This document shows, one piece after another, positions 4,149 through 17,994 of a stretch of DNA of 64,000 nucleotides. The DNA comes from Candidatus Caenarcanales bacterium. Its GTDB lineage: Bacteria > Cyanobacteriota > Vampirovibrionia > LMEP-6097. How positions within the stretch are numbered: position 1 is the stretch's first letter; every line of letters begins with the position of its first letter. The stretch lies in assembly GCA_013216135.1 (NCBI GenBank), contig JABSOS010000004.1:79939-143938 (forward strand). Direction: 5' to 3'. Both the position numbers and the translations under genes were made by a program. The notes below the pieces were generated by a model, which saw only the letters and a list, made by a program, of their open reading frames with translations, was not told where the DNA came from and searched no databases.

Positions 4149-5369
4149 TTATTTTTTAATCTCTCCTTCTGTTGGAGACTTTTGATAAGCTCCCTCTTGA
4201 GAAGACACTTCTGAATCAGGGTCATTATTCTTATTAATGGTTTCATGAGACGAGGCTGGTTTATTATCTTTGTGAATATATTTGAAACTCTCATTACCTC
4301 TTTTTTGTTTCCCAAATAAAAAATGATAAATACCTTTAAAAGCCGAAGTTAAGATACCTTTCTTTTCCTCTTTCTTTTTAGGTAGATTATCTTCTCTTTC
4401 TTCACTTAGCTTTTTGTCTTTAAATAACTGGTAGTAACCTGAACTATTACCAAAAATTTGTGATTTTTGTACATAACCATTATTGTCAAACAAAGCGAAA
4501 CCAGAAATATGCCCACCTAAATACCATTCATTATTTCCTGCTATACGAGAAACCAAATTTTCTTTATGTTTTATTAGACCACCAGCTATAGACTTGTTTA
4601 TGTATAAAATTTTTACTTTTGAAGCTTTATCATCATCTTTTTTATCAGCTTTATAGACATAAGCTTGTGCTATTTCTAATAATATCTCAGAAAGCTTGGT
4701 TTTAACTAAGTCTTTGCTTTCTTGGCTTATATCTTGGCTTTCTGTAACTTTACTATTGATGCTAGACACTAGATCTAAAATACTTGATAATTCTCCCTTT
4801 GATAAAAAAATTATATTTTTTTTTGTAGAGTTAAGAACTTTAGCATTTAAATTTGTATTTTTATGTAATTGAGCTGCAACAATATAGGGAAGTAGATCTG
4901 CCTTAATATTTATTTCATTTGACTCAACAGTCTCTTTATTTATAACAATATCAAGAAGCTTATCTGATAAATCAATCGCTTTTTCAATCGCACCTAAACT
5001 AATAAAGGGTTCATTTATGTGAATTTGATCAAGAAATGGAAAATTTTTGGGTTCAATTTCTTCTACTGACTTTTTGAAAAGTTCTAACTTCTCAATAATA
5101 GATTGACCTTCAAATAAAGGCATTGAATTTGTTACTATTAAATCTTTGGTTTCTTTCAAACAATCTTCAAGAGACAAATTGATATCCTGGGCTGTTTTAC
5201 TTAAACTTTTATAAGCTAACATTTCCTGCATGATATTTTTGACATTAGTTTTTTGGATATTAATCTTTGGAGATTTTTTATTATCAGTAGATGCGTCTTC
5301 CTTATCTTTAGCCAAAGCATAAATAGGGGAACAAAAAAAGATTAATGTGAGGATAAATATAAATCTCAT
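4149..5369 (-). CDS. Secreted Lys/Glu-rich hypothetical protein (signal peptide)
   Basis: 406 aa. N-terminal MRFIFILTLIFFCSPIYALA. Charged low-complexity regions. Confidence 0.5.
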   Translation of the reverse strand: MRFIFILTLIFFCSPIYALAKDKEDASTDNKKSPKINIQKTNVKNIMQEMLAYKSLSKTAQDINLSLEDCLKETKDLIVTNSMPLFEGQSIIEKLELFKKSVEEIEPKNFPFLDQIHINEPFISLGAIEKAIDLSDKLLDIVINKETVESNEINIKADLLPYIVAAQLHKNTNLNAKVLNSTKKNIIFLSKGELSSILDLVSSINSKVTESQDISQESKDLVKTKLSEILLEIAQAYVYKADKKDDDKASKVKILYINKSIAGGLIKHKENLVSRIAGNNEWYLGGHISGFALFDNNGYVQKSQIFGNSSGYYQLFKDKKLSEEREDNLPKKKEEKKGILTSAFKGIYHFLFGKQKRGNESFKYIHKDNKPASSHETINKNNDPDSEVSSQEGAYQKSPTEGEIKK

Positions 5370-5523
5370 TAATATGTATTTTATCTAATAAGCTCTCTAA
5401 CTTATTTAAATATTGTGCTTATCTGGAGAACAATAGAGAAGTTATAATATCGCTTACGCTTTTATACAAATGTTTAAGTTATGTCTTGTGAGAAATCGTT
5501 CAATAATGTAAAATAATTCGATT

Positions 5524-5973
5524 ATGATACCTCTTTGTGAGTACGTCTGTGATACTTGTGGCGAGTTGATTGTTAGTCCTGATGAGGGCTACTTAGAATG
5601 GGTTGGTGGCGTAGGAATAAAAGACCATTCTTTTAAAATCATTCACCACAAACATGAATGTCAGAGGAAAGAAAAAGATCTACCTAATGGTTTTATAAAA
5701 GATGGAAGTTTGAGTCGCTATCTTGGTGTAGAAAATTTGCAAAACCTTTATACCTTACTCCATCCAGGACCTCTTTATGGTAAGGGAAAGGGGATTCTTG
5801 TTGAAGATATCAATGAATATATGGAAATACTCAGAAGGTTGACAATTCCTTACTACGAAGAAGCTCGTATCTATTGGCCATTAGCTGAAGAGGATGGTTT
5901 CTTTTGTGATGTAAATGAAGTATATCCATGCTTAGTTAGTACTCTGAAGTTGATAATAGAAAAATATAAATAA
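5524..5973 (+). CDS. Hypothetical protein with N-terminal CxxxCxxC zinc-ribbon-like motif
   Basis: 149 aa, CEYVCDTCG. No recognisable family. Confidence 0.45.
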   Translation: MIPLCEYVCDTCGELIVSPDEGYLEWVGGVGIKDHSFKIIHHKHECQRKEKDLPNGFIKDGSLSRYLGVENLQNLYTLLHPGPLYGKGKGILVEDINEYMEILRRLTIPYYEEARIYWPLAEEDGFFCDVNEVYPCLVSTLKLIIEKYK

Positions 5974-6014
5974 AATTGAACCTTAGAAGACTTGGAACTC
6001 AATATATCTTCTAC

Positions 6015-6929
6015 CTAAGAGTCAAAAAAATTAAGATTCTTTAGTTCACTATCTTCATCGAAGACATCAAATTTTTTATTAAGATTAAAGTAATTATGAA
6101 AGTGTTTGACGAGCTTGGTTTTTACTGGTTTTAACTTATTCTTATATATTTCTGTTGATAAATAAAAGTTTTCAGTATATAAGAAAATTAATTTTGAGAT
6201 TAGTTCTTTTTGTTGAACTTTATTCATTAATGGAAGTTCTTTTACTAGTAATGTATTAGCAGTCTTGTTGTTTTTTAAAAAAGAAATTGTCACAATCGTA
6301 TCATTATTAAGTGGTATTAAATTAAGTATTATTGGATCTAAATGTTTAAGGCTACATTTCTCTTGGAGTAAATTAACTGGCTCGTGATTGATATCATTTT
6401 CTAAAAAAAAAGCTCCAGAGGCTAAGCAGTGCAAAGAGTCATTAAATATTATTGACACAGAATCTAATACATTATATTTTTTTTGCCATATGCTAGTTAG
6501 TAGCAAATTTTTGTAATACTCTAATCTGTAATACGCAAAGCAGCTTCCAACATCAATAAAGCTTGGATTATGATGGGTATCAAATTTTTCAGCCTGTGAG
6601 TTTATACAATTCATTTTTAATAAGTATTCTTTAGATAGGGTTCTAAGGGATAATTTCTCAATATGTTCTGGATTTGTAAAATCAAAGTTATGATCTTCAA
6701 AGCATTTGAATAATTCTTTGTCGTGATAACCACAAAATCCTCTAAATGTAGATGCTTGCCTTATTCCTATTTCTTCAAAATCACCACTACTCGGGGCTAT
6801 ACTAATAACCCTTCCATTTTTTGCAATTTTTCTCAAAAATTTTTTTGAGATTGAATGAGCCTGGATTATATTATCTTCACAATTTTCTGATTTGGCGACA
6901 CAAAATTTAATTTCTTGGAGAAATCTCAT
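6015..6929 (-). CDS. Hypothetical protein (Cys/His-rich segment GFCGYHDKELFKCFEDHN)
   Basis: 304-aa ORF convergent with 5524-5973. Possible metal-binding or nuclease-like segment, but no confident family. Confidence 0.45.
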   Translation of the reverse strand: MRFLQEIKFCVAKSENCEDNIIQAHSISKKFLRKIAKNGRVISIAPSSGDFEEIGIRQASTFRGFCGYHDKELFKCFEDHNFDFTNPEHIEKLSLRTLSKEYLLKMNCINSQAEKFDTHHNPSFIDVGSCFAYYRLEYYKNLLLTSIWQKKYNVLDSVSIIFNDSLHCLASGAFFLENDINHEPVNLLQEKCSLKHLDPIILNLIPLNNDTIVTISFLKNNKTANTLLVKELPLMNKVQQKELISKLIFLYTENFYLSTEIYKNKLKPVKTKLVKHFHNYFNLNKKFDVFDEDSELKNLNFFDS

Positions 6930-6964
6930 ATAGTAAATTTTAAATCATGAATTTGAGAGAGTTG

Positions 6965-6990
6965 AATTATTATCCCACTGGATAATAATT
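6965..6990. repeat. 26-bp palindrome aattattatccCACTggataataatt (P2)
   Basis: Same 11-nt arms as P1/P6 with a different 4-nt centre. Confidence 0.8.
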
Positions 6991-7116
6991 TAGTAAGCAT
7001 TTGTATATTTGTTCATGATAGATTGCCTAGTTTCTTTCTAAAATGATTTGACAGAATTTTCCACTAAGCTTCTTAAGTCTTTAGGACGGGCTGGTTATTA
7101 TAATAATTAGATAGAT

Positions 7117-8091
7117 ATGCGACATTTTTTCTCTGAAGAAGATCTTTTCCAAATACTAACACCTTATGATTGGTTACACAGACCAGATAAAGAATGTACT
7201 TATTCTTTTAGTCCTAAACCTGGTGAAGGATTCCAAATCTCAATTAATTATTTAAGAGAGCATAAGTATAAGGACAGAGCAAATAAACTTATAGAAACTT
7301 CAAAAAACAATGGATTACCTAAAATTCATAATTTTTATCAATTAGATGATTTTGTCTCTAAAAATGGACTCATTTGTAGAATGTGGGTAAAGAAACAAGC
7401 ATCTAAATTTATTAAAGTTTCAATAACAGCCATGAATATTGATGAACATTTGGAACAAGTGAATAAATGCTTGGAAAGCTTTAGAATAGTAAAACCAAAT
7501 AAAGTTGACCACGTTAAAAGATGGTACAAGTTCGGCAAATTCCTAGAAGGAATGGCTGCAATGATGGCTGTTCTTAATAAATCATTGGAAAATAAATGCT
7601 ATATAGAAAGTGTGTGTGCATATACTAATTTGATAGATGCATATCTCAGATGTGCTCTTATTTTAAAGAATCAAATTAAGAATAGAAATAAAGACCTAGA
7701 TATTAGATGGATTTATCAAGGTATTGATGATAAGCCAATTTCTGAAAAAATGACTTACAAAGAAGCTTTTGAGGAAGGGATTATTAACGAAAAACAAAAA
7801 ACAACTTTAGACACATTATATAATGAGAGAAATAGAGTAATTCATAGATTCATTATTTCAGAAATAAGCTATTTTGATATTGAAGATATTTCATGCCAAC
7901 ACAACAAGTTATTTGAAGAGATTTGGCAAATTGTAAAAGATTTAGAAGATGAACAGATTGCTTTAAATGTTGGCATGACTAAACAAGTTGAGACAGATAT
8001 CAAAGATTTTGATTATCAAATGTTTATAAAAGAGAAATTGGAGTCTTTTACTTTACTAAAGCATTCTTCTAGTAACTATTCTAAAAAGTGA
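7117..8091 (+). CDS. HEPN-like (Abi-type) protein, partner of downstream reverse transcriptase
   Basis: 324 aa. ERNRVIHRF matches the HEPN Rx4-6H motif in the C-terminal third. Sits 96 bp upstream of RT1, co-oriented. Confidence 0.45.
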   Translation: MRHFFSEEDLFQILTPYDWLHRPDKECTYSFSPKPGEGFQISINYLREHKYKDRANKLIETSKNNGLPKIHNFYQLDDFVSKNGLICRMWVKKQASKFIKVSITAMNIDEHLEQVNKCLESFRIVKPNKVDHVKRWYKFGKFLEGMAAMMAVLNKSLENKCYIESVCAYTNLIDAYLRCALILKNQIKNRNKDLDIRWIYQGIDDKPISEKMTYKEAFEEGIINEKQKTTLDTLYNERNRVIHRFIISEISYFDIEDISCQHNKLFEEIWQIVKDLEDEQIALNVGMTKQVETDIKDFDYQMFIKEKLESFTLLKHSSSNYSKK

Positions 8092-8187: not shown

Positions 8188-9594
8188 ATGACTGAGAATT
8201 CAATAACCATAGATGAGCAAGATATTGAATTATTTAACAGTGTATTTTCTAAGGAAAATTTAGAAAATACTTTTAAAAATAAGAAGAGCATATATTCAAA
8301 ACAATCATCTGGAATTGATAGAAAAAGCATTGAAAATTTTGAGAAAGAAACAAAAAATATTTTCCCAAAAATTTTAGAGAAAATAAAGGGTTCTGATTAT
8401 TATTTTTCCCCATATGTAGAAAGTTTATTTTTAAGAGGCCCAGATAAGCAACCACGAAGAATTTCTTTACCTACAATTCGAGATAAATTAACTCTAGACT
8501 TGGTTCGGCAATATTTAAATAAAAAGCTTGGTCAATCAGTAAAGAGGACTTTACCAAATATTTATATAAAGGAAATAAAAAAATTCTTTGAAGATAAGGA
8601 TACGAAATCTCTTAAATATAAAAGAATTGACATTTCAAGTTTTTATAAAAGTATCAATCACATAATTCTTTTGAACTTTCTTAGAAATATTAAAGTTCAT
8701 GATTCTGTTTATACTTTAATTAGAAGAGCTATAAAAACAAATACTTACAACAAATCAGTTTATTTAAGGAAAGACAAGGAAAATAACAATAAAGGTTTAC
8801 CAGAGGGACTTTCCATTTCAAATGTATTGGCTGAGTATTATTTACGTGAGATTGGTTTGATACCTATTCCTCAAGGTGTTTTATACCAACGCTACGTGGA
8901 TGATATTTTGATCTTGTATCAAGACGAACATGCTTTTCAGTCTTTCTATAATAAAATTGAAAGGAAATTCAAGAAACTTGATCTAAATATTTCGAAAGAT
9001 GAAGATAAGACGGGAGAGGGGAATCTTTCTAGTGATAAGGGCTTCAATTTTCTTGGTTATGATTTTAAAAAAGGTAAAATCTATGCAAAGCGAAGATCAC
9101 AGGTAAAGCTTATTAATACAATAATTAAATTGTTTACACAGTATAAGTATAGTACACAAAAAAATGAGTTGAAGAACCGAATATTGATAGAAGATGTTAA
9201 TGAAAAGCTTACTGGCGCTATGTCTGAAAGTATAAAGTATGGTTGGATATTTTTTTTCCGTGAAATAACTGATATTAACTTTTTGTACCAAGTTGATATT
9301 CTTGTGGAAAAGCTTCTTGATAGATATAAGCTTAGTGTTTCTAGTGAAGTGAAAAAAATAAAACAAATCTCAAAAGCTTATTATAAATTGAAAAAAAATG
9401 ACTATAGCTACTGTCATAATTATGATGCATATTCGACATTTTCAGATAAAATAAACTATCTTTCAGGAAGAGTAAAGGAATCTAGAGAAGATTTAAAAAC
9501 TAAGACATTTGAATATATTGATAGTCTATTTAAAGAGGTACGCAATAGAAATTTGAGTAATTTAGAAAAGGATAATGGGGTAGAATCATACTAG
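8188..9594 (+). CDS. Reverse transcriptase (RVT_1; retron/Abi/defense-associated-like, no endonuclease or maturase extension recognised)
   Basis: RT motifs: RRISLPTIRDKLTLDLV (1-2), LPEGLSISNVLAEYYL (4), YQRYVDDILIL (5, YVDD), KLDLNISKDEDKT (6), FNFLGYDF (7). Thumb-like KYGWIFFF. Confidence 0.85.
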   Translation: MTENSITIDEQDIELFNSVFSKENLENTFKNKKSIYSKQSSGIDRKSIENFEKETKNIFPKILEKIKGSDYYFSPYVESLFLRGPDKQPRRISLPTIRDKLTLDLVRQYLNKKLGQSVKRTLPNIYIKEIKKFFEDKDTKSLKYKRIDISSFYKSINHIILLNFLRNIKVHDSVYTLIRRAIKTNTYNKSVYLRKDKENNNKGLPEGLSISNVLAEYYLREIGLIPIPQGVLYQRYVDDILILYQDEHAFQSFYNKIERKFKKLDLNISKDEDKTGEGNLSSDKGFNFLGYDFKKGKIYAKRRSQVKLINTIIKLFTQYKYSTQKNELKNRILIEDVNEKLTGAMSESIKYGWIFFFREITDINFLYQVDILVEKLLDRYKLSVSSEVKKIKQISKAYYKLKKNDYSYCHNYDAYSTFSDKINYLSGRVKESREDLKTKTFEYIDSLFKEVRNRNLSNLEKDNGVESY

Positions 9595-9727
9595 AGTGCC
9601 TTCCTGTAAAATGGAACCAGTGTATTTTATTATACAAAGGGATATTGTTATTTTTGTGCTAGACACTACGAACCATATTCTTATCTAAGCAATATGGGAA
9701 CATCATTAAAAGTGGGCACTCAGATTT
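9594..9727 (+). ncRNA. Candidate structured non-coding element between RT1 and the TM protein, flanked by a 7-bp inverted repeat gagtgcc/ggcactc
   Basis: IR at 9594-9600 and 9715-9721 encloses about 114 nt. Reminiscent of the a1/a2 repeats that flank retron msr-msd, but in an atypical position (downstream of the RT). Confidence 0.2.
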
Positions 9728-10357
9728 ATGTTTAAAGCTATAAAGTCGGAAGTAGAGGATTTTCAAAGAAGAGTTAAAATTACACGTGGAGCCAGATATA
9801 ATGCTTTCAGAAGAAATGAAGCTAAAAGTATTTATTCTTCCTGTACTTTGATATTTTTATCAATATTTATTTTTGCTCTTAATTTACTTCCTTACTATAA
9901 TTTTTTGAATATTGATTTGTTAAAGGATAAGAACTCAAGTATTCAGTTTTCGGCACTAATACTTTCTGTTTTCTTGTTGGTTTTTTCTCTTCTAGAAGCC
10001 AATAATAGTTATAAGTATAATGCAGATAAATTTCATGGTTTTGCTATAGGTCTAGAAAATATTGTAAATGAATTAGATCGATGTTCTTCTGAAAATCAGT
10101 TAGAAAGAATAAAAACAGAGTATGTCGACCAGTTGGAAAAATCTTTTTTGAATCATTTAGAAATTGACTATTTGATTTCATCAGCAAGATACTACACACC
10201 AAGTAGTGATAGTAAATGTTTAGATAAAGTCCTTTATTGGTTGAAAATCATCATTTATGGTACGCGTAATTTTGTTTTTACTTTATTGCCCTATTTATTA
10301 CTTATCTCCCTGTCAGTATATTATGTTGCTTACTGTCAACTTAATATCATTAATTAA
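9728..10357 (+). CDS. Integral membrane protein (about 4 TM), possible effector of the RT cassette
   Basis: 209 aa. Hydrophobic segments IFLSIFIFALNLL, ALILSVFLLVFSLL, FVFTLLPYLLLISLSVYYVAY. Confidence 0.5.
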   Translation: MFKAIKSEVEDFQRRVKITRGARYNAFRRNEAKSIYSSCTLIFLSIFIFALNLLPYYNFLNIDLLKDKNSSIQFSALILSVFLLVFSLLEANNSYKYNADKFHGFAIGLENIVNELDRCSSENQLERIKTEYVDQLEKSFLNHLEIDYLISSARYYTPSSDSKCLDKVLYWLKIIIYGTRNFVFTLLPYLLLISLSVYYVAYCQLNIIN

Positions 10358-10402
10358 TCCTATTTTGACTTAATTGAAAAAATATACTTCAATATTCGTA
10401 AT

Positions 10403-10666
10403 ATGCAAAAGTTTATATTAACCTTGTTCATTTTGCTTGCAGGTTTGTCTTCCTCTGCAAATCTAGATTACTATCAGTCAACAGATAATGATAGATCTAT
10501 TCAACTGCAAGATCAAGTTCAAGAAACTGTTTTTTTCAATACTAAATCTCATAAGTTTCATAAAATGTCTTGTATCTGGGCTAAGAAATGTACTGTTAAC
10601 TGTGTGATAATGGAAAAAGCTGAAGCAATTTTAAAGGGTGTGCCTTGTAAAGTTTGTGGTGGCTGA
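10403..10666 (+). CDS. Small secreted Cys-containing protein
   Basis: 87 aa. Signal-like MQKFILTLFILLAGLSSSA; C-terminal CKVCGG. Confidence 0.35.
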   Translation: MQKFILTLFILLAGLSSSANLDYYQSTDNDRSIQLQDQVQETVFFNTKSHKFHKMSCIWAKKCTVNCVIMEKAEAILKGVPCKVCGG

Positions 10667-10916
10667 TTTTTTACGTAGATAACATCAATAATAATTGAAA
10701 TTTACAATAGCTTAACAGATGAATTTCCTCTGAGGGGATTATTATAATCTGCACCTATACTTAACATCAAACAAAGGTACAGATTCTTTTTTAAGCTTGT
10801 TTAGATTCAGTTATGCGATATTTTCTCTAAGTAAATTTACATAATTACAAAACTACAGACTATTTTTAAAACTTCTATATATTTTTTAAGAAAGAGAAGT
10901 AATAACTTAATCGTGT

Positions 10917-10942
10917 GATTATTATTCCTAAGGATAGAAAAC
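10917..10942. repeat. Palindrome-family copy P3 with hybrid arms (tgattattattcc TAA ggatagaaaacc)
   Basis: Left arm is ttattatcc-type; right arm is ggatagaaa-type as in P5. Confidence 0.6.
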
Positions 10943-11071: not shown

Positions 11072-11893
11072 TTGAAAATAACTCCTAATAAATTATATTC
11101 AAATTATCTAGTAGTATACTTTGACGTACTAGGTTGGAAAGATTTAACTTTAAATAGCCCGCTTGCCTGCAGTTTTGTGTCTAACCGGATTAATGGTCTT
11201 AGATATAAATTAAAATCGAGAAGTATCTTTAGTCGTGAAAAAGTAATATCATTCTTCTTCTCTGATTCCGTAATACTAACCCTTGAGCTTCCAATGGATA
11301 ATGAAAATAATTTAGAAAAACAAAAAATAATATTTTATCAAATTGCAGAATTGCAGTCAGAATTGTTTGAAAATTGGGGAGTGTTATTAAGAGGATTTAT
11401 CACTATTGGAGAATGTTTTATAGATCCTTTTGAACATGTTTGTTTTGGACCAGCAATTAATAAATCAGTATTGAAAGAGAAACTTATTTGTTTTCCAAAA
11501 ATAGTTTTAGATAAGGATCATTTTCCAGATAAGCTGATGGTTAATAATTCTAGGCAAAATTCTGTCCAAATTAATAGAAAAGATTCTTGGTGGAACAAAA
11601 AAGCACATAGAGGTGAATGTTATGAAGAATTTAAAGAAATTCAAGAATCTTTCTTCCTTGATTATATTAAGGTTCAAAAAAACTCATTAGATCGTTACGT
11701 TGGAGGATTCAATCAAGTCAACAACTTTCGTACATCCTTTAGAAGTAAATTAAATAAACAAATCACAAATGATGTGACAATGCAAAATGAGAAATTAAGC
11801 TTGAAATATATCTGGCTCACAAAATATTACGACAAGTGTTTTAGAAAAAATTCTTTTCATTTAGATTATAAAAATTTCACTAAATCCAATTAA
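11072..11893 (+). CDS. Class III nucleotidyl cyclase-like (CHD / palm fold) protein, tentative
   Basis: VVYFDVLGW resembles the cyclase FADIVGFT metal-binding motif. FFFSDSVILTL resembles the GD second-metal motif. LLRGFITIGECF ... FGPAINKSVLKE resembles RIGIHTG ... GDTVNxASRME. TTG start. Confidence 0.35.
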   Translation: MKITPNKLYSNYLVVYFDVLGWKDLTLNSPLACSFVSNRINGLRYKLKSRSIFSREKVISFFFSDSVILTLELPMDNENNLEKQKIIFYQIAELQSELFENWGVLLRGFITIGECFIDPFEHVCFGPAINKSVLKEKLICFPKIVLDKDHFPDKLMVNNSRQNSVQINRKDSWWNKKAHRGECYEEFKEIQESFFLDYIKVQKNSLDRYVGGFNQVNNFRTSFRSKLNKQITNDVTMQNEKLSLKYIWLTKYYDKCFRKNSFHLDYKNFTKSN

Positions 11894-11969
11894 TGATTTA
11901 TGTTGAACTTTTAATCAACCGTAAGTAATTACGTCTTGAATTACTTTCTAATGCTATTTTAATATATTA

Positions 11970-14900
11970 ATGTTTAGTGATAGCTATTTTTTAGAATTAC
12001 AATTTGAAAATAGGGTGTATAGTCTAAACTCTTATGAATTTCAGAAATTTTTTGAAGATATTATGCTAAAAAAATTTCCTGGACATTTTCAAAGAGTTAG
12101 ACCATATGGAAATAAAGGTGATGGTGGTAATGACGGTTTCATGAAAGAGGATGGGAAGTATTTTCAATCCTACGCACCTTTAAAAGTCAATGAAGACAAA
12201 GAAAAAGAAGCTATACAAAAGTTTAGAGATGACTTTCAAAAACTCTTATCAAGTGAATGGGGCAATTTTTCTAAAATTAAAGAATATTACTTTGTTTATA
12301 ACGATAAATTTTATGGCACTACTATCGAATTTGAGAAAGAACTTCACGTTTACCAAGAGGGTTACCCACAAATAAAATTTTATTTATTAGGAACAGATCA
12401 ACTTAAATCCATATTCAAAGAATTAAGTGAAGATGATTATAAAAGTCTAAATTTTAATACAGATAAATCAGCTTCTCATCTTATTGTAGAAGCATACCTT
12501 AATAATATTGAGAATCAAATAAAATTAAACAATGTTCATATTGCTGAAAATGCACTAGACTTATTAGACCAAATCCTTAATTCTGAGGAATTAAAAAAAA
12601 ATTCACAATATATTGATCTCTATATTAAGAACTCTGTCATGAAGTATAAGTATTTTTTACTAAAAGAGAGATTTCAAAATGCTATTGACACCTTAGAAAA
12701 ACTAACTGCAAGATATCCTGAACGTTGTGAACCACTTTTACATCTGGCTGATTATTACTGTAGCCAGGATGAGATAAACTTAGCTTCAAGCTTATATGAA
12801 AAAGCAACAACAAAAATAAATTTTGGTGATTATTGGCTTAATAAATATGTTCCAATATATATCAAAATTAAAAGTAATTTGTCCTTTGTTGAAGATGATT
12901 TTGTCTTATTGAGAAGCTTGAATGATAATCAAAGAGCATGTTTCTATAGATTATTTTCTATGTATTACTTAAATAAAGATATAGAAAAATCTCTTGAATA
13001 TATAGATAAAGCTATAGAGTTTGACCCAAAAAATCTCTCTTTTATTCTAACTAAACTCAATATATACAAAGCTCAGTTAGTGAATAACTATTCTGAAAAA
13101 CTGTATAGGCTTGAATTTGTAGATAATATGGAAAAAGTTATTATCTATATTGATGAATCTTTTTCTTTCATATCCGTTAGAAGTAAATTACTTTTACAGA
13201 TGAATAAACTCTGTATTCTCTGGTGTCAAGAGAAAATACAAAGCTGTATTCTGTTACTTGAAGGTATTTCAGAGTTACTGGTTGAATGTGATTTTAATAA
13301 AGGAATCGATTCTGTAATCTGTGAGCTATTAACTTCAGTTGTAACTCCAGACCTATTTGAAGTTATTCTTGATTATTGCCTAGATAATAAATCCAAACAA
13401 TTTTCTGATTTATTACTAAAATTAATTTTCAATCATGCGCTAAGGGATCAAAAATTAAAACAACAAGCTCAAGTTTTTTTTGAATCAATTTCAGCCAATC
13501 AGGGCTCTAAATATATAAAACTAATGAGCTTTATTAACTCTGGAGATGAAGAAGAATTTATTAAAATTGTTAGTGCTGACACTAATTTTCTTCTAATGCT
13601 GGCAGAAACATTAAAGATAAATCCTGAATTTAGGAAAAAAATAATTTTTCATTTGAGAGACTCTAATAATGAATATTCAAATATACTTTATACAATATTT
13701 TTATTTGATATTGGTGAAGATAAAGAGGCTTTTGAGTATTTAAAAAAAATTGATTTGAGAAACATAACAGTTCCCCAATATGATCCTTTACTCAGAGTTG
13801 CTTTGAAAAATGAAGCTTGGGATTTGGCTGAAATAATAATAGTGCAAATAATTGATAAAGAAGAAAATGATAAATATCGATATTTTTTAAATACACAGTT
13901 ATTAAACTGCTATGTTCATTTAGGAAAGCACCTTGAAGCAACAAAAGTTGGAAAAGCCTTATTAAAGTCGGAACAATTTAATAGTTCTGATACTGAAAAA
14001 ATTTTAGAGCTGTTACTATATTCTTACCTCAAACTGAGTCAACATTCTAATAGATATAAAAATGAGGTAAAAGAAATATATTATAGTTATCGTGAATATA
14101 ATTTTTCTTTGAATTTTCTTTTAAATATTGCTAGTTTTGTTCATGCATATCTTGGTACAGGTGATGACCTTGTAAGTTTAATAGTCAGATCTATATCCAA
14201 ATTAAATAAAAATCCAAATCCACTGGAGTATGCTCAAATATTTACGGTTCTAACTTTAAAAAACCAAGTCAAAATTGATATTGAGTCTAGTAAGAAAACT
14301 GTTACTGAAGATTCATTTGTGAAAATTATAGAAGATGATGACTGGTACTATATTGGTAACGGAAATTGTTTATGTGCTATTCCTCTTCAAGAAACACAAA
14401 CTAAATACCATCAACTATTCAATGCCTCTTTAGGTGACAAAAATATTGAAAAGATATTTGATTTAAGGCAATTTTTATACTATAAAGCTAGGGAAATATT
14501 TAATAAACAAATAGAAAAAGATAATTTGGACAATATGAAGAAATTCAACTTACTGGATTCTTCGGGTAATATTGATATAAATAGATTTAAAGATACAATA
14601 GCTGAGTTACAAAACTCTGAATCTACATTTTTTGATAAATATTCTGAAAATACATATCCATTAGCTATGCTTGCTTTATTTGAAGGAGGTTTAATACCTT
14701 CAATTGCAAAGATTCAGAGAGAAAATAAAGGCTACATTCACTCAAGTGATGGAAGTATTAATGAAATTGAAAGACAAAGCTCGCTTATTAAAGAGTTGAT
14801 TAAAGCTAAGTCTGAGCTTTACATTGATACAACATCAATTCTTTTCTTAAGTGAGGTGGGTATTTTTAACCACTTTATTAATTTATTTTCAAAGTACAAA

Positions 14901-15788
14901 ATAGTTCAGTCATCAATTAATTTTTTGTCTGACACTTTAGACACCTATAAATATAGGAAGGGAACATTGGGAACTGCAAGTGTCATAAATAATGAGCTTG
15001 TTTACTTACCTTTCAATAAAGCTCGAAAGAAGCAAATTCAAAAATTTGAGAAAAGGTTACTTGAATCAATTAAGTTTCTCAATAAGGATCTCAACAGGAT
15101 TGATTCATTATCAAAAGCTTCAAAGTCTTCTGTTCCTTCTGAACAGAGAATACCACCAGAACTCTGTGATGGAGCGATTATGGCTAAGAAAAATAAATTG
15201 CCAATTATGACAGATGACTATGTTTACCTTCACTGGAACGCTCTTGAGACAAACTTAGAACCACCTCAATATTTTTCATCTATAGCTTTTTTAGAGTATT
15301 TGTATGAGCAAAAAATAATAAATTTTGAAGAATACTTGGATTGCTTTTATTATTTCTCTTCATATAGATTTAGGTTTATGAGTATCAATAAACAGATTTT
15401 GTATAAAACTATATTTGGTGATGATCTTATAGTGTTGGTTAATCCAGGTAACATAAGGAAACTTAACCTTCATTTGATTTTATCAAGAGACTATGGTGTT
15501 TCACTTCAAAATTGTTTTAGATTAATTGGTGAGTTTGTTTATGATTTAGTAAAAAACAAATCAATAATATTTAGTGTACTGAATGATGTTTTAATCAGTT
15601 TATTAAATTATCTACCACTTGAATATAAATCCATCTTGTCTTATAAAATGATTGTTGACTATTGTACAAAGAGATACGAAGCTGAAAAAAAAGAAAGAAC
15701 AATTATTGACTTGAAAAATGACTTTCTAGAGAAGAGGTTAAGTCAATTACAAGATGTGTGTGGTTTAACCACTCTCTTGAAATTTTAG
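11970..15788 (+). CDS. 1272-aa protein: N-terminal Mrr-like PD-(D/E)xK nuclease motif + long alpha-helical/TPR-like repeat region; no Walker A
   Basis: YGNKGDGGNDGF ... YFQSYAPLKV resembles the Mrr_cat GxDGGxDG signature. The rest is predicted helical repeats. No GxxxxGK[ST]. Confidence 0.6.
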   Translation: MFSDSYFLELQFENRVYSLNSYEFQKFFEDIMLKKFPGHFQRVRPYGNKGDGGNDGFMKEDGKYFQSYAPLKVNEDKEKEAIQKFRDDFQKLLSSEWGNFSKIKEYYFVYNDKFYGTTIEFEKELHVYQEGYPQIKFYLLGTDQLKSIFKELSEDDYKSLNFNTDKSASHLIVEAYLNNIENQIKLNNVHIAENALDLLDQILNSEELKKNSQYIDLYIKNSVMKYKYFLLKERFQNAIDTLEKLTARYPERCEPLLHLADYYCSQDEINLASSLYEKATTKINFGDYWLNKYVPIYIKIKSNLSFVEDDFVLLRSLNDNQRACFYRLFSMYYLNKDIEKSLEYIDKAIEFDPKNLSFILTKLNIYKAQLVNNYSEKLYRLEFVDNMEKVIIYIDESFSFISVRSKLLLQMNKLCILWCQEKIQSCILLLEGISELLVECDFNKGIDSVICELLTSVVTPDLFEVILDYCLDNKSKQFSDLLLKLIFNHALRDQKLKQQAQVFFESISANQGSKYIKLMSFINSGDEEEFIKIVSADTNFLLMLAETLKINPEFRKKIIFHLRDSNNEYSNILYTIFLFDIGEDKEAFEYLKKIDLRNITVPQYDPLLRVALKNEAWDLAEIIIVQIIDKEENDKYRYFLNTQLLNCYVHLGKHLEATKVGKALLKSEQFNSSDTEKILELLLYSYLKLSQHSNRYKNEVKEIYYSYREYNFSLNFLLNIASFVHAYLGTGDDLVSLIVRSISKLNKNPNPLEYAQIFTVLTLKNQVKIDIESSKKTVTEDSFVKIIEDDDWYYIGNGNCLCAIPLQETQTKYHQLFNASLGDKNIEKIFDLRQFLYYKAREIFNKQIEKDNLDNMKKFNLLDSSGNIDINRFKDTIAELQNSESTFFDKYSENTYPLAMLALFEGGLIPSIAKIQRENKGYIHSSDGSINEIERQSSLIKELIKAKSELYIDTTSILFLSEVGIFNHFINLFSKYKIVQSSINFLSDTLDTYKYRKGTLGTASVINNELVYLPFNKARKKQIQKFEKRLLESIKFLNKDLNRIDSLSKASKSSVPSEQRIPPELCDGAIMAKKNKLPIMTDDYVYLHWNALETNLEPPQYFSSIAFLEYLYEQKIINFEEYLDCFYYFSSYRFRFMSINKQILYKTIFGDDLIVLVNPGNIRKLNLHLILSRDYGVSLQNCFRLIGEFVYDLVKNKSIIFSVLNDVLISLLNYLPLEYKSILSYKMIVDYCTKRYEAEKKERTIIDLKNDFLEKRLSQLQDVCGLTTLLKF

Positions 15789-15812: not shown

Positions 15813-15838
15813 AATTATTATCCCTAAGGATAGAAAAG
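15813..15838. repeat. Palindrome-family copy P4, hybrid arms (aattattatccc TAA ggatagaaaag)
   Basis: Same hybrid architecture as P3. Confidence 0.6.
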
Positions 15839-16010: not shown

Positions 16011-16517
16011 ATGAGATCAGTCTTATTTATAATTCTCACATTATTTGTTTTTGCTGGAGGTTATTATGCTGGTAAAAATTCCAAGAATCTAGAATTTACT
16101 GATTCAAAGCCAGAGCTTTTTGTTAAAGCTGAAACAAAGATGGAAAGTTATCAAAACACCTATCTAAAACCTCTAAGGGTAATTGATGGTGACACCATAG
16201 AATTTGAAATAGTTAATCTCCCATATCCAGAAATCTCTATTCTAAAGCTTAGAATCTTCGGAGTTGATACTCCTGAAAAGTCATGGCGTACAAAATGTGA
16301 ACAAGAGAAAAATCTAGCAAACCTAGCTTCATCTTTTACAGAAGACTTATTTAATAAAGCAGATCATAAAGAGATAAAGCTTATGAAGTGGGGTAAATAC
16401 GGTGGTAGGGTTTTAGGTGATATTTATTTAGATGGTAAATCTTTAAAAGAAGAGCTTTTAAGTAAAGGGTTAGCTAAAGAATACTTTGGTAAGGAAAAGG
16501 TATCTTGGTGTGAATAA
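16011..16517 (+). CDS. Secreted/membrane-anchored thermonuclease (staphylococcal nuclease, SNase family)
   Basis: N-terminal hydrophobic anchor. VIDGDTIEF, RIFGVDTPEK, KYGGRVLGDIY match the SNase Ca-binding and catalytic motifs. Confidence 0.8.
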   Translation: MRSVLFIILTLFVFAGGYYAGKNSKNLEFTDSKPELFVKAETKMESYQNTYLKPLRVIDGDTIEFEIVNLPYPEISILKLRIFGVDTPEKSWRTKCEQEKNLANLASSFTEDLFNKADHKEIKLMKWGKYGGRVLGDIYLDGKSLKEELLSKGLAKEYFGKEKVSWCE

Positions 16518-16827: not shown

Positions 16828-17994
16828 GTGCAAAACTCAGATAAGCAAGAGAATATCTTATATAAACTAGCGAAGCTCGCTTCAGGACCAAATATATTAC
16901 TAGTATCTAGTGTCTACTACTACATAGCTTTTAAATATTTAAGCTATTTTGAAGAGAGCGATGCTTTTAGAATTCTCACTTGTCTAATTTTAATCAGTAT
17001 CGCAACCATGATTTATGAGGCAGCGACAAATAAAGATCCTAAAGTTGTCTGTAATAGATTCGCCTGGTCTAATTTAGAAAAAACACTTGCTTATGCATTA
17101 ATTATCTGGGCTTTGTTTTGGGGATATGGGTTTATAGATAGAGTAATAAATCCAACTGAAAAAATTCCAGTCGAGATTAAAGAAGAAGAGCAAAGTAATG
17201 ATACTCAGAACTCAGTAAAACAAGAAGAGGATAAAATCGAAGAAAAACAGTGGGACTCTAATGAGCCTGTTAGTTTTGAAAACTTACTTGCAGAAAATAC
17301 AGAAGAAGGTGTTTTAGTTACCGGGGAAACAAATTTACCTGATGGAGCAATTTTAAGAGTAGGTCTAGAATTAAAATCTAACTGGAAAATTAGTACTCAT
17401 AATTCTGTAAAAATTGAAGATGGGAAATTTGAGGCTTTGCTTTGTTCATACCAGCCTTGTAGGTCTGGTCTATATATAGTTTCGGTATTACTCCCTATGC
17501 AACATGATGCAGAAATCGTTGAGATTCTAGGTAGGCTAAATAAAAAAATTAGGGGAGATTTAGTCAAAGGTAATGATGGTGATCTAAAAACTGCGAAGAA
17601 AGAATTTGATTTCCAGCTTAATAACTCAGCAGAGGATACTAAGCTGAAAGCAAAAAGACAGCTTGCAAGTGACTTATTAAATAAATATCAAAACTTATAT
17701 AATGAATTGATCTCTTTTAAAAATCAACCTAGCTTTCATAGACTTGGCTTTAGTCAAGGTTCTACCTATGCTAGTTGGAAAGCAAGAGTCGGAGAATTAG
17801 AACAAGAATTTAGAGATTCTGATATTTTTGTGCCTGGGAAAAAACCTATTATTGTTCAGCCAAGTACCTTAAAGGTTTTAGGTAATTCCTATATGAGAAG
17901 TCGGGGGCAAGAAACTTCGAATACTCTTCATAATCGTCACTTGTTTGAAGAACTCTTCGACGATAAGGGGAATATACTAAATCAGTTTTACTAA
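16828..17994 (+). CDS. Membrane-anchored hypothetical protein (2-3 N-terminal TM, large soluble C-terminal domain)
   Basis: 388-aa ORF. No family recognised. Confidence 0.5.
   Translation: MQNSDKQENILYKLAKLASGPNILLVSSVYYYIAFKYLSYFEESDAFRILTCLILISIATMIYEAATNKDPKVVCNRFAWSNLEKTLAYALIIWALFWGYGFIDRVINPTEKIPVEIKEEEQSNDTQNSVKQEEDKIEEKQWDSNEPVSFENLLAENTEEGVLVTGETNLPDGAILRVGLELKSNWKISTHNSVKIEDGKFEALLCSYQPCRSGLYIVSVLLPMQHDAEIVEILGRLNKKIRGDLVKGNDGDLKTAKKEFDFQLNNSAEDTKLKAKRQLASDLLNKYQNLYNELISFKNQPSFHRLGFSQGSTYASWKARVGELEQEFRDSDIFVPGKKPIIVQPSTLKVLGNSYMRSRGQETSNTLHNRHLFEELFDDKGNILNQFY

What the first reader, a model, noticed from the sequence alone, without database searches (positions are those of the whole stretch)
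11072..15788. Two-gene cassette: cyclase-like protein plus a 1272-aa Mrr-like nuclease/helical-repeat giant (candidate novel signalling-type defense system)
Seen: the 273-aa protein has FDVLGW, SDSV and RGFITIG ... GPAINKSV segments. These are positioned like the two metal-binding Asp motifs and the GDTVNxASR substrate motif of class III nucleotidyl cyclases. Twenty-six bp downstream is a 1272-aa ORF. Its N-terminus (YGNKGDGGNDGF ... QSY) matches the Mrr_cat GxDGGxDG nuclease signature. The remainder is alpha-helical/TPR-like, with no P-loop and no obvious cNMP-binding beta-barrel. The pair sits between two palindrome sites in a defense island. Established: cyclase plus nucleotide-activated effector is the logic of Pycsar and CBASS, and Mrr-like domains are common defense effectors. 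Inference: this is a cyclase/giant-effector pair of a configuration I do not recognise as a described family. Both the cyclase call and the nuclease call rest on short motifs only.
Basis: partly seen in the sequence, partly recalled or inferred. Interest (0 to 1): 0.8.

Follow-up and report, generated by a model that had tools for sequence, protein, structure and literature searches.

The report
Two neighbouring but independent defence genes
A cyclase-shaped protein from an unstudied family sits next to a giant nuclease–TPR–PIN protein from a known single-gene anti-phage family, but the two are paired almost nowhere else, so they are most likely separate immune genes and not a new signalling system.

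Summary

The two-gene signalling-system reading is not supported. ORF B belongs to the TPR–GreA/B-C–PIN ("TGP") architecture predicted by Kaur et al. 2021 as a mostly stand-alone conflict gene with a variable N-terminal effector, REase included. One member, Agp, was validated in 2024.

ORF A belongs to a large, unnamed family of about 260-aa stand-alone proteins (479 cluster representatives). None of 80 ORF A-family loci holds an ORF B relative. Only 1 of 88 ORF B-family loci holds an ORF A relative. That one is non-adjacent and is not a close relative of ORF A. Neither family has a conserved neighbour.

The pair lies in a defence island (UG17 RT + SLATT, SNase, integrase, SIR2 + RT). A 24-bp direct repeat brackets it, which hints at joint insertion.

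The most interesting residue is the uncharacterised ORF A family. It often lies beside defence genes and once sits inside a BREX locus.

The parts
11072..11893 (+). ORF A, 273 aa: divergent member of a large unnamed family of about 260-aa stand-alone proteins with a cyclase fold
   Evidence: (479 representatives at E<=1e-3)
11096..11521 (+). ORF A aa 9-150: class III nucleotidyl-cyclase-fold (palm) domain. It holds metal-binding Asp D18 and D65, R107-G108, and G126-P127 in place of the cyclase GD motif. N130 is present, but the canonical transition-state Arg is absent.
11621..11845 (+). ORF A aa 184-258: family-specific helical C-terminal domain (DY-L and K245-Y-x-W248-L motifs). No structural or sequence match was found for it.
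11970..15788 (+). ORF B, 1272 aa: REase-fold + TPR + GreA/B-C-like + PIN protein (TGP architecture)
   Evidence: PMC8195603
11970..12449 (+). ORF B aa 1-160: restriction-endonuclease (PD-(D/E)xK, Mrr/FokI-like) fold. Motif is E29 ... D51/D55 ... Q66-S-Y68, with invariant Tyr where the catalytic Lys normally sits. K84 on the next helix is invariant.
12507..14249 (+). ORF B aa ~180-760: TPR / alpha-solenoid region (boundaries approximate)
   Evidence: TPR_1/2/19; MamA E 1.3e-5 over aa 232-356; TPR families in 13-19 of 21 homologs
14307..14489 (+). ORF B aa ~780-840: conserved FVK..W.[YF].G...L.A segment at the position of the GreA/B-C domain of TGP proteins. It is about 16 aa shorter than in homologs. 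Its identity as GreA/B-C was not established here.
   Evidence: alignment columns 812-880; no PDB sequence hit; hhalign to E. coli GreA 101-144, probability 0.9%
14820..15230 (+). ORF B aa 951-1087: PIN nuclease domain of the TGP type. Acidic residues D953, E1058, D1067 and D1083 are conserved.
   Evidence: PF20698, E 3.7e-4, model positions 1-133 of 138; 20 of 21 homologs, best 2e-11
10918..10941 (+). Left copy of the 24-bp direct repeat ATTATTATTCCTAAGGATAGAAAA, 131 bp upstream of ORF A
15814..15837 (+). Right copy of the 24-bp direct repeat ATTATTATCCCTAAGGATAGAAAA, 26 bp after the ORF B stop

Best explanation
The interval contains two separate, self-contained defence-island genes that happen to be neighbours in this genome. 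They are not a cyclase-to-effector signalling pair.

ORF B is a single-protein TGP system (TPR + GreA/B-C-like + PIN) that carries an N-terminal restriction-endonuclease-fold effector. The mechanism below is inferred from Kaur et al. 2021 and from the Bab/Agp work. The TPR/GreA/B-C module senses infection, either through phage-hijacked RNA polymerase or a phage protein. The PIN domain then cleaves RNA. The REase-fold domain serves as a second, DNA-directed or suicide effector.

ORF A is a divergent member of a large, unnamed family of stand-alone proteins of about 260 aa. Each has a class III cyclase-fold catalytic domain with an intact two-Asp metal site, fused to a family-specific helical domain. 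By inference, it acts on its own as a nucleotide-converting enzyme. The C-terminal domain would gate the palm domain, which then makes a nucleotide product or consumes NTPs.

Shown: the folds, the conserved residues, family membership, the lack of co-conservation and the defence-island contexts. Inferred: all biochemical activities and triggers.
For: ORF B:
- It has 20 full-length homologs at 27-33% identity.
- PF20698 'PIN domain associated with the TPR-GreAB-C-PIN system' hits 20 of 21, best 2e-11, and hits ORF B at aa 951-1087.
- Kaur et al. list REase among the variable N-terminal effectors and say these genes are mostly stand-alone.
- Agp, a TGP protein, is required for anti-T5 defence.

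ORF A:
- Exhaustive phmmer finds 479 representatives.
- The family profile's best PDB hits are nearly all class III cyclases.
- Eight of 79 members hit Pfam Guanylate_cyc.

Independence of the two genes:
- tblastn of ORF B finds nothing in 80 ORF A-family genome loci.
- The ORF A-family HMM hits 1 of 88 ORF B-family loci (L108). There it lies downstream with a 143-aa gene between, and that protein is not detectably close to ORF A.
- Neighbour clustering finds no partner recurring in more than 6 loci for either family.
- No Pfam family occurs in more than 2 of 150 immediate neighbours of ORF A relatives.
- ORF A's closest relatives lack a TGP neighbour.
- ORF A and ORF B share no terminal motif.

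Defence context of the ORF A family:
- Neighbours include SIR2, DrmC/PLD, DinG, HmaC, MkoC, AbiEii, a type I MTase, Dsr1 and PDC/HEC candidates.
- One relative sits directly upstream of PglZ-BrxL, apparently inside a BREX locus.
- Sixty plasmids carry the family and no phage does.
Against: In this genome the two genes are on the same strand and 76 bp apart, with no predicted terminator between them. One 24-bp direct repeat found nowhere else in the 64 kb brackets them exactly. They may therefore have arrived together and may be co-transcribed.

The 80 ORF A-family loci were retrieved with motifs of the central clade, mostly Proteobacteria and Acidobacteria, so ORF A's own sub-clade is sampled by only four contexts.

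ORF A's family lacks the canonical cyclase Arg, so its chemistry is unknown.

The REase-fold domain has Tyr in place of the catalytic Lys, so nuclease activity is not assured.

The GreA/B-C domain could not be confirmed here. ORF B's own PF20698 score (21.2 bits) is below Pfam's cut-off (27.8).
Confidence: 0.75

Rival explanations
1. This is a lineage-specific functional pair. ORF A and ORF B were acquired as one cassette and work together. The cyclase-fold protein would produce a nucleotide signal, or bind directly, to switch on the nuclease domains of the TGP giant. This would parallel the Bab/Agp case, in which a small neighbour is coupled to a TGP protein.
For: The genes share a strand with a 76-bp gap and no terminator-like site between them. 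A 24-bp direct repeat brackets exactly the two genes and occurs nowhere else in the window. At least one TGP protein, Agp, does work with an adjacent small partner. One further locus, L108, has both families within about 1 kb.
Against: The pair is not conserved: 0 of 80 and 1 of 88 loci, and that one has a different order, an intervening gene and a distant paralogue. No cNMP-binding, CARF, SAVED or other sensor domain was detected in ORF B. The two proteins share no adaptor or amyloid-like motif. Both families are otherwise stand-alone.
Confidence: 0.12
2. ORF A belongs functionally to the upstream UG17 reverse transcriptase + SLATT pair. It would make a nucleotide signal that opens the SLATT membrane effector. 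SLATT domains were named for their association with nucleotide-signal generators.
For: RT_UG17 (E 9.5e-107) and SLATT_5 / RTasSLATT (E 4.7e-32 / 1.2e-30) lie 0.7-2.9 kb upstream on the same strand.
Against: ORF A is separated from them by an 87-aa ORF, a terminator-like hairpin at 10726-10738 and a 405-bp spacer that contains the left repeat. No RT, SLATT, 87-aa or SNase homolog occurs among 627 neighbour proteins of 77 ORF A-family loci. PADLOC models UG17 systems as RT + SLATT only.
Confidence: 0.04
3. ORF A is not a defence gene. It would be a housekeeping or plasmid-maintenance nucleotide-binding protein with a cyclase-like fold that sits by chance in variable regions.
For: Some neighbours of family members are housekeeping genes such as IlvD, RecA, DnaA and NAD synthase. 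On rhizobial repABC plasmids the gene lies directly after repC. There is no PADLOC hit. Cyclase-fold ATP-binding proteins without cyclase activity exist (PDB 6yii).
Against: Recognised defence genes are frequent immediate neighbours, and one member sits directly upstream of PglZ-BrxL, apparently embedded in a BREX locus. The family has a patchy distribution, variable context and plasmid carriage, as defence and addiction genes do. Both metal-binding Asp are invariant, which argues for catalysis.
Confidence: 0.2

Closest known systems
TPR-GreA/B-C-PIN ('TGP') conflict systems (Kaur, Iyer, Burroughs & Aravind 2021, eLife, PMC8195603); experimentally studied example Agp of the Bab/Agp system of E. 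coli ECOR25 (bioRxiv 10.1101/2024.11.07.622273)
   Same: ORF B has the constant region: TPR repeats followed by a PIN domain of the PF20698 type. It has a variable N-terminal effector of a class the authors list (REase). Like most TGP genes, it has no conserved neighbour.
   Different: The GreA/B-C domain could not be confirmed with the tools here, and that segment is about 16 aa shorter in ORF B. The REase-fold domain has an invariant Tyr at the catalytic Lys position. Agp instead has an N-terminal amyloid motif and needs the partner Bab; ORF B shows no such motif and no such partner.
Class III adenylyl/guanylyl cyclase catalytic domain (Pfam PF00211), including the Pycsar cyclases PycC
   Different: Neither ORF A nor most relatives score above Pfam's cut-off. 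The GD motif is GP. The transition-state Arg is absent family-wide, and the Asn is kept in only 26 of 79 members (ORF A has it). A unique helical domain of about 100 aa follows. No effector gene is linked, unlike Pycsar's conserved cyclase + effector operon.
Mrr-like / type IIS PD-(D/E)xK nuclease domains (FokI cleavage domain, N.BspD6I, LlaBIII nuclease, AF1548; the effector domains of Avs4 and HamA)
   Same: ORF B aa 1-160 has the alpha-beta-beta-beta-alpha-beta core. It has the GDGGxDG loop before strand 2 and a Q-x-[KY] strand 3, as in Mrr-type QxK enzymes.
   Different: There is no Pfam Mrr_cat hit. The Lys is replaced by invariant Tyr68. An invariant Lys (K84) sits on the following helix, which suggests a relocated catalytic residue or a non-canonical or inactive site.

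Membership tests
TGP (TPR-GreA/B-C-PIN) system | C-terminal PIN domain of the PF20698 type with conserved acidic residues | tested here: met
   ORF B aa 951-1087 covers model positions 1-133 of 138 at E 3.7e-4. Its 21.2 bits are below the 27.8 cut-off. Twenty of 21 full-length homologs hit, best 2e-11. D953, E1058, D1067 and D1083 are conserved.
TGP (TPR-GreA/B-C-PIN) system | TPR repeat region preceding the PIN domain | tested here: met
   ORF B hits TPR_1/2/19 and NCBIfam MamA (E 1.3e-5). TPR families hit 13-19 of 21 homologs.
TGP (TPR-GreA/B-C-PIN) system | GreA/B C-terminal-like domain between the TPR region and the PIN domain | tested here: inconclusive
   A conserved segment lies at the right place. 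The profile gives no PDB sequence hit. hhalign against E. coli GreA aligns the expected residues 101-144, but at probability 0.9%.
TGP (TPR-GreA/B-C-PIN) system | Variable N-terminal effector or adaptor domain; gene mostly stand-alone | tested here: met
   The N-terminus has an REase fold. No neighbour recurs in more than 6 of 86 loci. Five annotated contexts all differ.
Class III nucleotidyl cyclase (PF00211) | Cyclase-homology palm fold | tested here: met
Class III nucleotidyl cyclase (PF00211) | Two metal-binding aspartates | tested here: met
   D18 and D65 are invariant in 79 sequences. They align with the F-x-D-I-x-G-F and G-D aspartates of GC-C and Rv1900c.
Class III nucleotidyl cyclase (PF00211) | Transition-state Asn and Arg of the GDxVNxAsR helix | tested here: not met
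   The Arg position aligns with E/L/K. The Asn is present in ORF A (N130) but in only 26 of 79 family members. The GD motif is GP.
Class III nucleotidyl cyclase (PF00211) | Score above Pfam's curated threshold | tested here: not met
   ORF A has no Pfam hit at E<=1. Only 8 of 79 relatives hit Guanylate_cyc at E<=0.1.
Class III nucleotidyl cyclase (PF00211) | Cyclase activity; homodimeric active site | not testable with these tools
   This needs enzymology or a multimer prediction.
Pycsar | Cyclase gene in a conserved operon with a cNMP-sensing effector (TM, TIR or similar) | tested here: not met
   ORF A has no PADLOC PycC hit, and 1 of 79 relatives hits at E 0.0098. No neighbour is conserved in 77 loci. 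ORF B has no cNMP-binding hit.
CBASS | CD-NTase (cGAS/DncV-like) nucleotidyltransferase plus a Cap effector | tested here: not met
   ORF A has a class III cyclase palm fold, not a CD-NTase fold. There are no PADLOC CBASS hits.
Mrr_cat / PD-(D/E)xK nuclease | Restriction-endonuclease core fold | tested here: met
Mrr_cat / PD-(D/E)xK nuclease | Catalytic D ... (D/E/Q)-x-K triad | tested here: not met
   D55 and Q66 are present, but position 68 is an invariant Tyr in all 21 homologs. There is no Pfam Mrr_cat hit.

The most novel reading that the evidence does not exclude
The ORF A family could be a new kind of single-gene immune or addiction module. In it, a class III cyclase-fold enzyme that lacks the canonical Arg would be gated by its own helical C-terminal domain. 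On infection it would make an unusual nucleotide product or deplete NTPs, with no dedicated effector gene.

The family has at least 479 clusters at 50% identity, no Pfam, NCBIfam or PADLOC model, and is annotated 'hypothetical protein'.

A rarer sub-case has roughly 0.1 probability. In this Caenarcaniphilales lineage, the repeat-bracketed cassette would couple that enzyme to the TGP giant.
Probability: 0.3. Interest if true: 0.6.

Novelty: new variant of a known kind. Interest (0 to 1): 0.38.

Why it matters
If the verdict holds, this locus should not be added to the catalogue of cyclic-nucleotide defence systems. It shows how adjacency inside a defence island can mimic an operon.

Two things remain useful. 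The first is a clean example of the REase-bearing TGP variant with an unusual Q-x-Y active-site strand. It could test whether TGP proteins use their N-terminal effector independently of the PIN domain.

The second is a widespread, unnamed cyclase-fold family that travels alone on chromosomes and plasmids, often next to defence genes. Its chemistry cannot be read off from the canonical cyclase residues: the metal site is intact but the transition-state Arg is missing. Identifying its product would extend the known range of the class III cyclase fold in bacteria.

Tried and rejected
- Word-indexed homolog search with ORF A found only ORF A itself. The same search with the ORF B N-terminus found only three fragments. 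The exhaustive phmmer search was needed.
- The search for related loci with the 79-sequence alignment failed because it was too divergent. It worked with a 21-sequence subset.
- PADLOC and NCBIfam have no model for ORF A or its family.
- Profiles of the GreA/B-C-like and PIN segments gave no significant PDB sequence hits.
- The afdb50 fold library was unavailable. The viral fold library gave only weak cyclase-domain matches.
- No empty site could be found for the repeat-bracketed cassette. The SNase protein is not on record, and the SLATT protein occurs only on contigs with the same arrangement.
- I looked for an adaptor or amyloid motif shared by ORF A and ORF B, as in Bab/Agp. None was found.
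- I tested whether ORF A is a third component of the UG17 RT + SLATT system and rejected it.
- I tested for a TGP-associated sub-clade of the ORF A family and rejected it. ORF A and the L108 protein do not detect each other.
- Promoter-like hits in the region are no more frequent than in shuffled sequence.
Full report
OBSERVATION. The window comes from a low-GC (27-33%) Candidatus Caenarcaniphilales MAG. ORF A (11072-11893, +, 273 aa, TTG start) and ORF B (11970-15788, +, 1272 aa) exist as described. The gap between the genes is 76 bp, not 26 bp. The "two palindrome sites" are two copies of one 24-bp direct repeat, ATTATTATYCCTAAGGATAGAAAA, at 10918-10941 and 15814-15837. The copies are 23/24 identical. 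They are the only two in the 64 kb, and none is expected by chance.

ORF A. Pfam, PADLOC and NCBIfam return nothing for ORF A. The word-indexed search finds only ORF A itself. An exhaustive phmmer search of 1.84 billion representatives finds 479 proteins at E<=1e-3. Nearly all are 240-300 aa, and the best is 37% identical. An alignment of 79 of them has invariant D18, D65, R107, G108, G126 and P142. Its consensus is F-x-D-I-L-G-F-K / F-S-D-S / L-x-R-G-G-I-T-x-G / F-G-P-A-L-x-x-A-Y-x-L-E / Y-P-R-I-I-I-D / K-Y-x-W-L. A profile of this alignment hits the PDB almost only at class III adenylyl/guanylyl cyclases. Examples are guanylyl cyclase C at E 2.7e-6 and Rv1900c at 3.3e-5. D18 and D65 fall on the two metal-binding Asp, and R107-G108 fall on the R-x-G strand. 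Eight of 79 members also hit Pfam Guanylate_cyc.

The fit to cyclases is incomplete in three ways. The cyclase "GD" is "GP". The transition-state Arg has no counterpart. The Asn is kept in only 26 of 79 members, although ORF A has N130. ORF A is itself an outlier in its family, with a one-residue deletion in that helix and K for the near-invariant R143. The C-terminal 100 or so residues form a family-specific helical domain with no match.

ORF B. It has 20 full-length homologs at 27-33% identity. PF20698, "PIN domain associated with the TPR-GreAB-C-PIN system", hits ORF B at aa 951-1087. The E-value is 3.7e-4 and the score is below Pfam's cut-off. The model hits 20 of 21 family members, best 2e-11. 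The acidic residues D953, E1058, D1067 and D1083 are conserved. TPR models hit aa 232-368.

This architecture is the "TGP" system of Kaur et al. 2021. [quoted passage not shown] A TGP protein, Agp, has been shown to be needed for anti-T5 defence together with its partner Bab. I could not confirm the GreA/B-C domain. A conserved segment lies at the right position, but it gives no PDB sequence hit. Its alignment to E. coli GreA residues 101-144 is in the expected register but not significant. ORF B is about 16 aa shorter there than its homologs.

ARE THEY A PAIR? Seen from the ORF A side, 80 genome loci were retrieved with family motifs. None contains an ORF B relative by tblastn. Clustering of the four genes on each side finds no neighbour shared by more than 3 loci. 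No Pfam family occurs in more than 2 of the 150 immediate neighbours. ORF A's closest relatives also lack a TGP gene. P0023 follows a trypsin-like gene. P0024 precedes a 111-aa gene and an HNH gene. P0029 lies directly upstream of PglZ-BrxL, apparently inside a BREX locus.

Seen from the ORF B side, five annotated contexts all differ. In 88 loci, 65 of which have at least 900 bp upstream, the ORF A-family HMM hits once, in L108. There the 233-aa relative lies downstream of the TGP gene with a 143-aa gene between them, in an island that also carries TIR and CHAT proteins. ORF A and that protein do not even detect each other by phmmer, so no TGP-linked sub-clade exists. No neighbour of the ORF B family recurs in more than 6 of 86 loci. 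ORF A and ORF B share no terminal motif of the Bab/Agp kind. Nothing from the local context (RT, SLATT, 87-aa ORF, SNase) recurs near either family.

WHAT SPEAKS FOR A LOCAL LINK. The genes share a strand, have a short gap and have no terminator-like site between them. The 24-bp direct repeat brackets exactly these two genes. This fits en-bloc insertion, or a shared operator in front of ORF A and the SNase gene. I could not find an empty site to decide between these. Joint arrival does not show joint function, so I give the local-pair reading about 0.12.

CONTEXT. The window from about 3 to 24 kb is a mobile defence island. It carries:
- VbhA/Fic;
- four unknown ORFs;
- UG17 RT + SLATT_5;
- ORF A and ORF B;
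- a secreted-type SNase;
- a tyrosine integrase;
- a SIR2-like gene overlapping a second, unclassified RT;
- a DUF3800 gene.

THE ORF A FAMILY. It is annotated "hypothetical protein". Sixty plasmids carry it, including 30 from Bacillus and many rhizobial repABC plasmids, where it directly follows repC. No phage genome carries it. Its immediate neighbours include many recognised defence proteins: SIR2, DrmC/PLD, type IV DinG, HmaC, MkoC, AbiEii, a type I MTase, Dsr1, HEC-06 and several PDC candidates. Housekeeping genes also occur among them. I did not compute a background-corrected enrichment. A defence or addiction role is plausible but unproven.

VERDICT. The proposed two-gene cyclase/effector system is not supported. 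ORF B is a new member of a described, partly validated single-gene family. ORF A is a divergent member of an uncharacterised cyclase-fold family, and that family deserves study in its own right.

Noticed in passing
window 10918-10941 and 15814-15837: A 24-bp direct repeat (23/24 identical, core TCCT-A-AGGA) brackets exactly ORF A + ORF B and occurs nowhere else in the 64 kb. It could be an att-like scar of en-bloc insertion or a shared operator. No empty site was found.
   Followed up: partly
window 8188-10666: A UG17-class defence reverse transcriptase (E 9.5e-107) is followed by a SLATT_5 two-TM protein. Next comes an 87-aa ORF with a signal-peptide-like N-terminus and a Cys-rich C-terminus. 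A 405-bp non-coding stretch with a terminator-like hairpin (10726-10738) follows.
   Followed up: partly
window 18693-22020: A tyrosine integrase (18693-19709) is followed by a SIR2-like protein (19742-20755; PADLOC Aga_SIR2, E 5e-8). Its end overlaps the start of a 423-aa reverse transcriptase (20749-22020) that fits no specific UG/retron class well (best specific match RT_UG26, 5.5e-25). This may be a SIR2 + RT defence pair.
   Followed up: no
window 16011-16517 and 16828-17994: A staphylococcal-nuclease-like protein with an N-terminal signal/TM segment lies directly after the right repeat. A 388-aa protein with no family hit follows it.
   Followed up: no
window 4149-8091: Four ORFs (406, 149, 304 and 324 aa) lie between the Fic toxin gene and the UG17 RT. 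None has a Pfam or PADLOC hit. They are unexamined candidates in the same island.
   Followed up: no
L176 490-6291: An ORF A-family gene (P0029, 34% identical to ORF A) lies directly upstream of PglZ and BrxL, apparently in a BREX locus. It overlaps the end of the preceding gene by one base. By my recollection this position often holds embedded accessory defence genes.
   Followed up: partly
L108 2393-11455: A metagenomic island carries a TIR-domain protein, a TGP giant, a 143-aa protein, a 233-aa ORF A-family protein and a CHAT-like fragment. It is the only other locus with both families.
   Followed up: yes
L170 5848-6837; L171 5815-6840: On Agrobacterium and Pseudorhizobium repABC plasmids the ORF A-family gene lies directly downstream of repC. 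It is annotated with an N-terminal extension of about 60-80 aa and sits near VapBC and integrase genes.
   Followed up: partly
window 14400-14480 (ORF B aa ~820-835): ORF B lacks about 16 residues that all 20 homologs have in the second half of the presumed GreA/B-C segment.
   Followed up: no
window 23654-24466 (-): A DUF3800-family protein (PADLOC DUF3800_VII, E 8e-20) lies at the far edge of the island.
   Followed up: no
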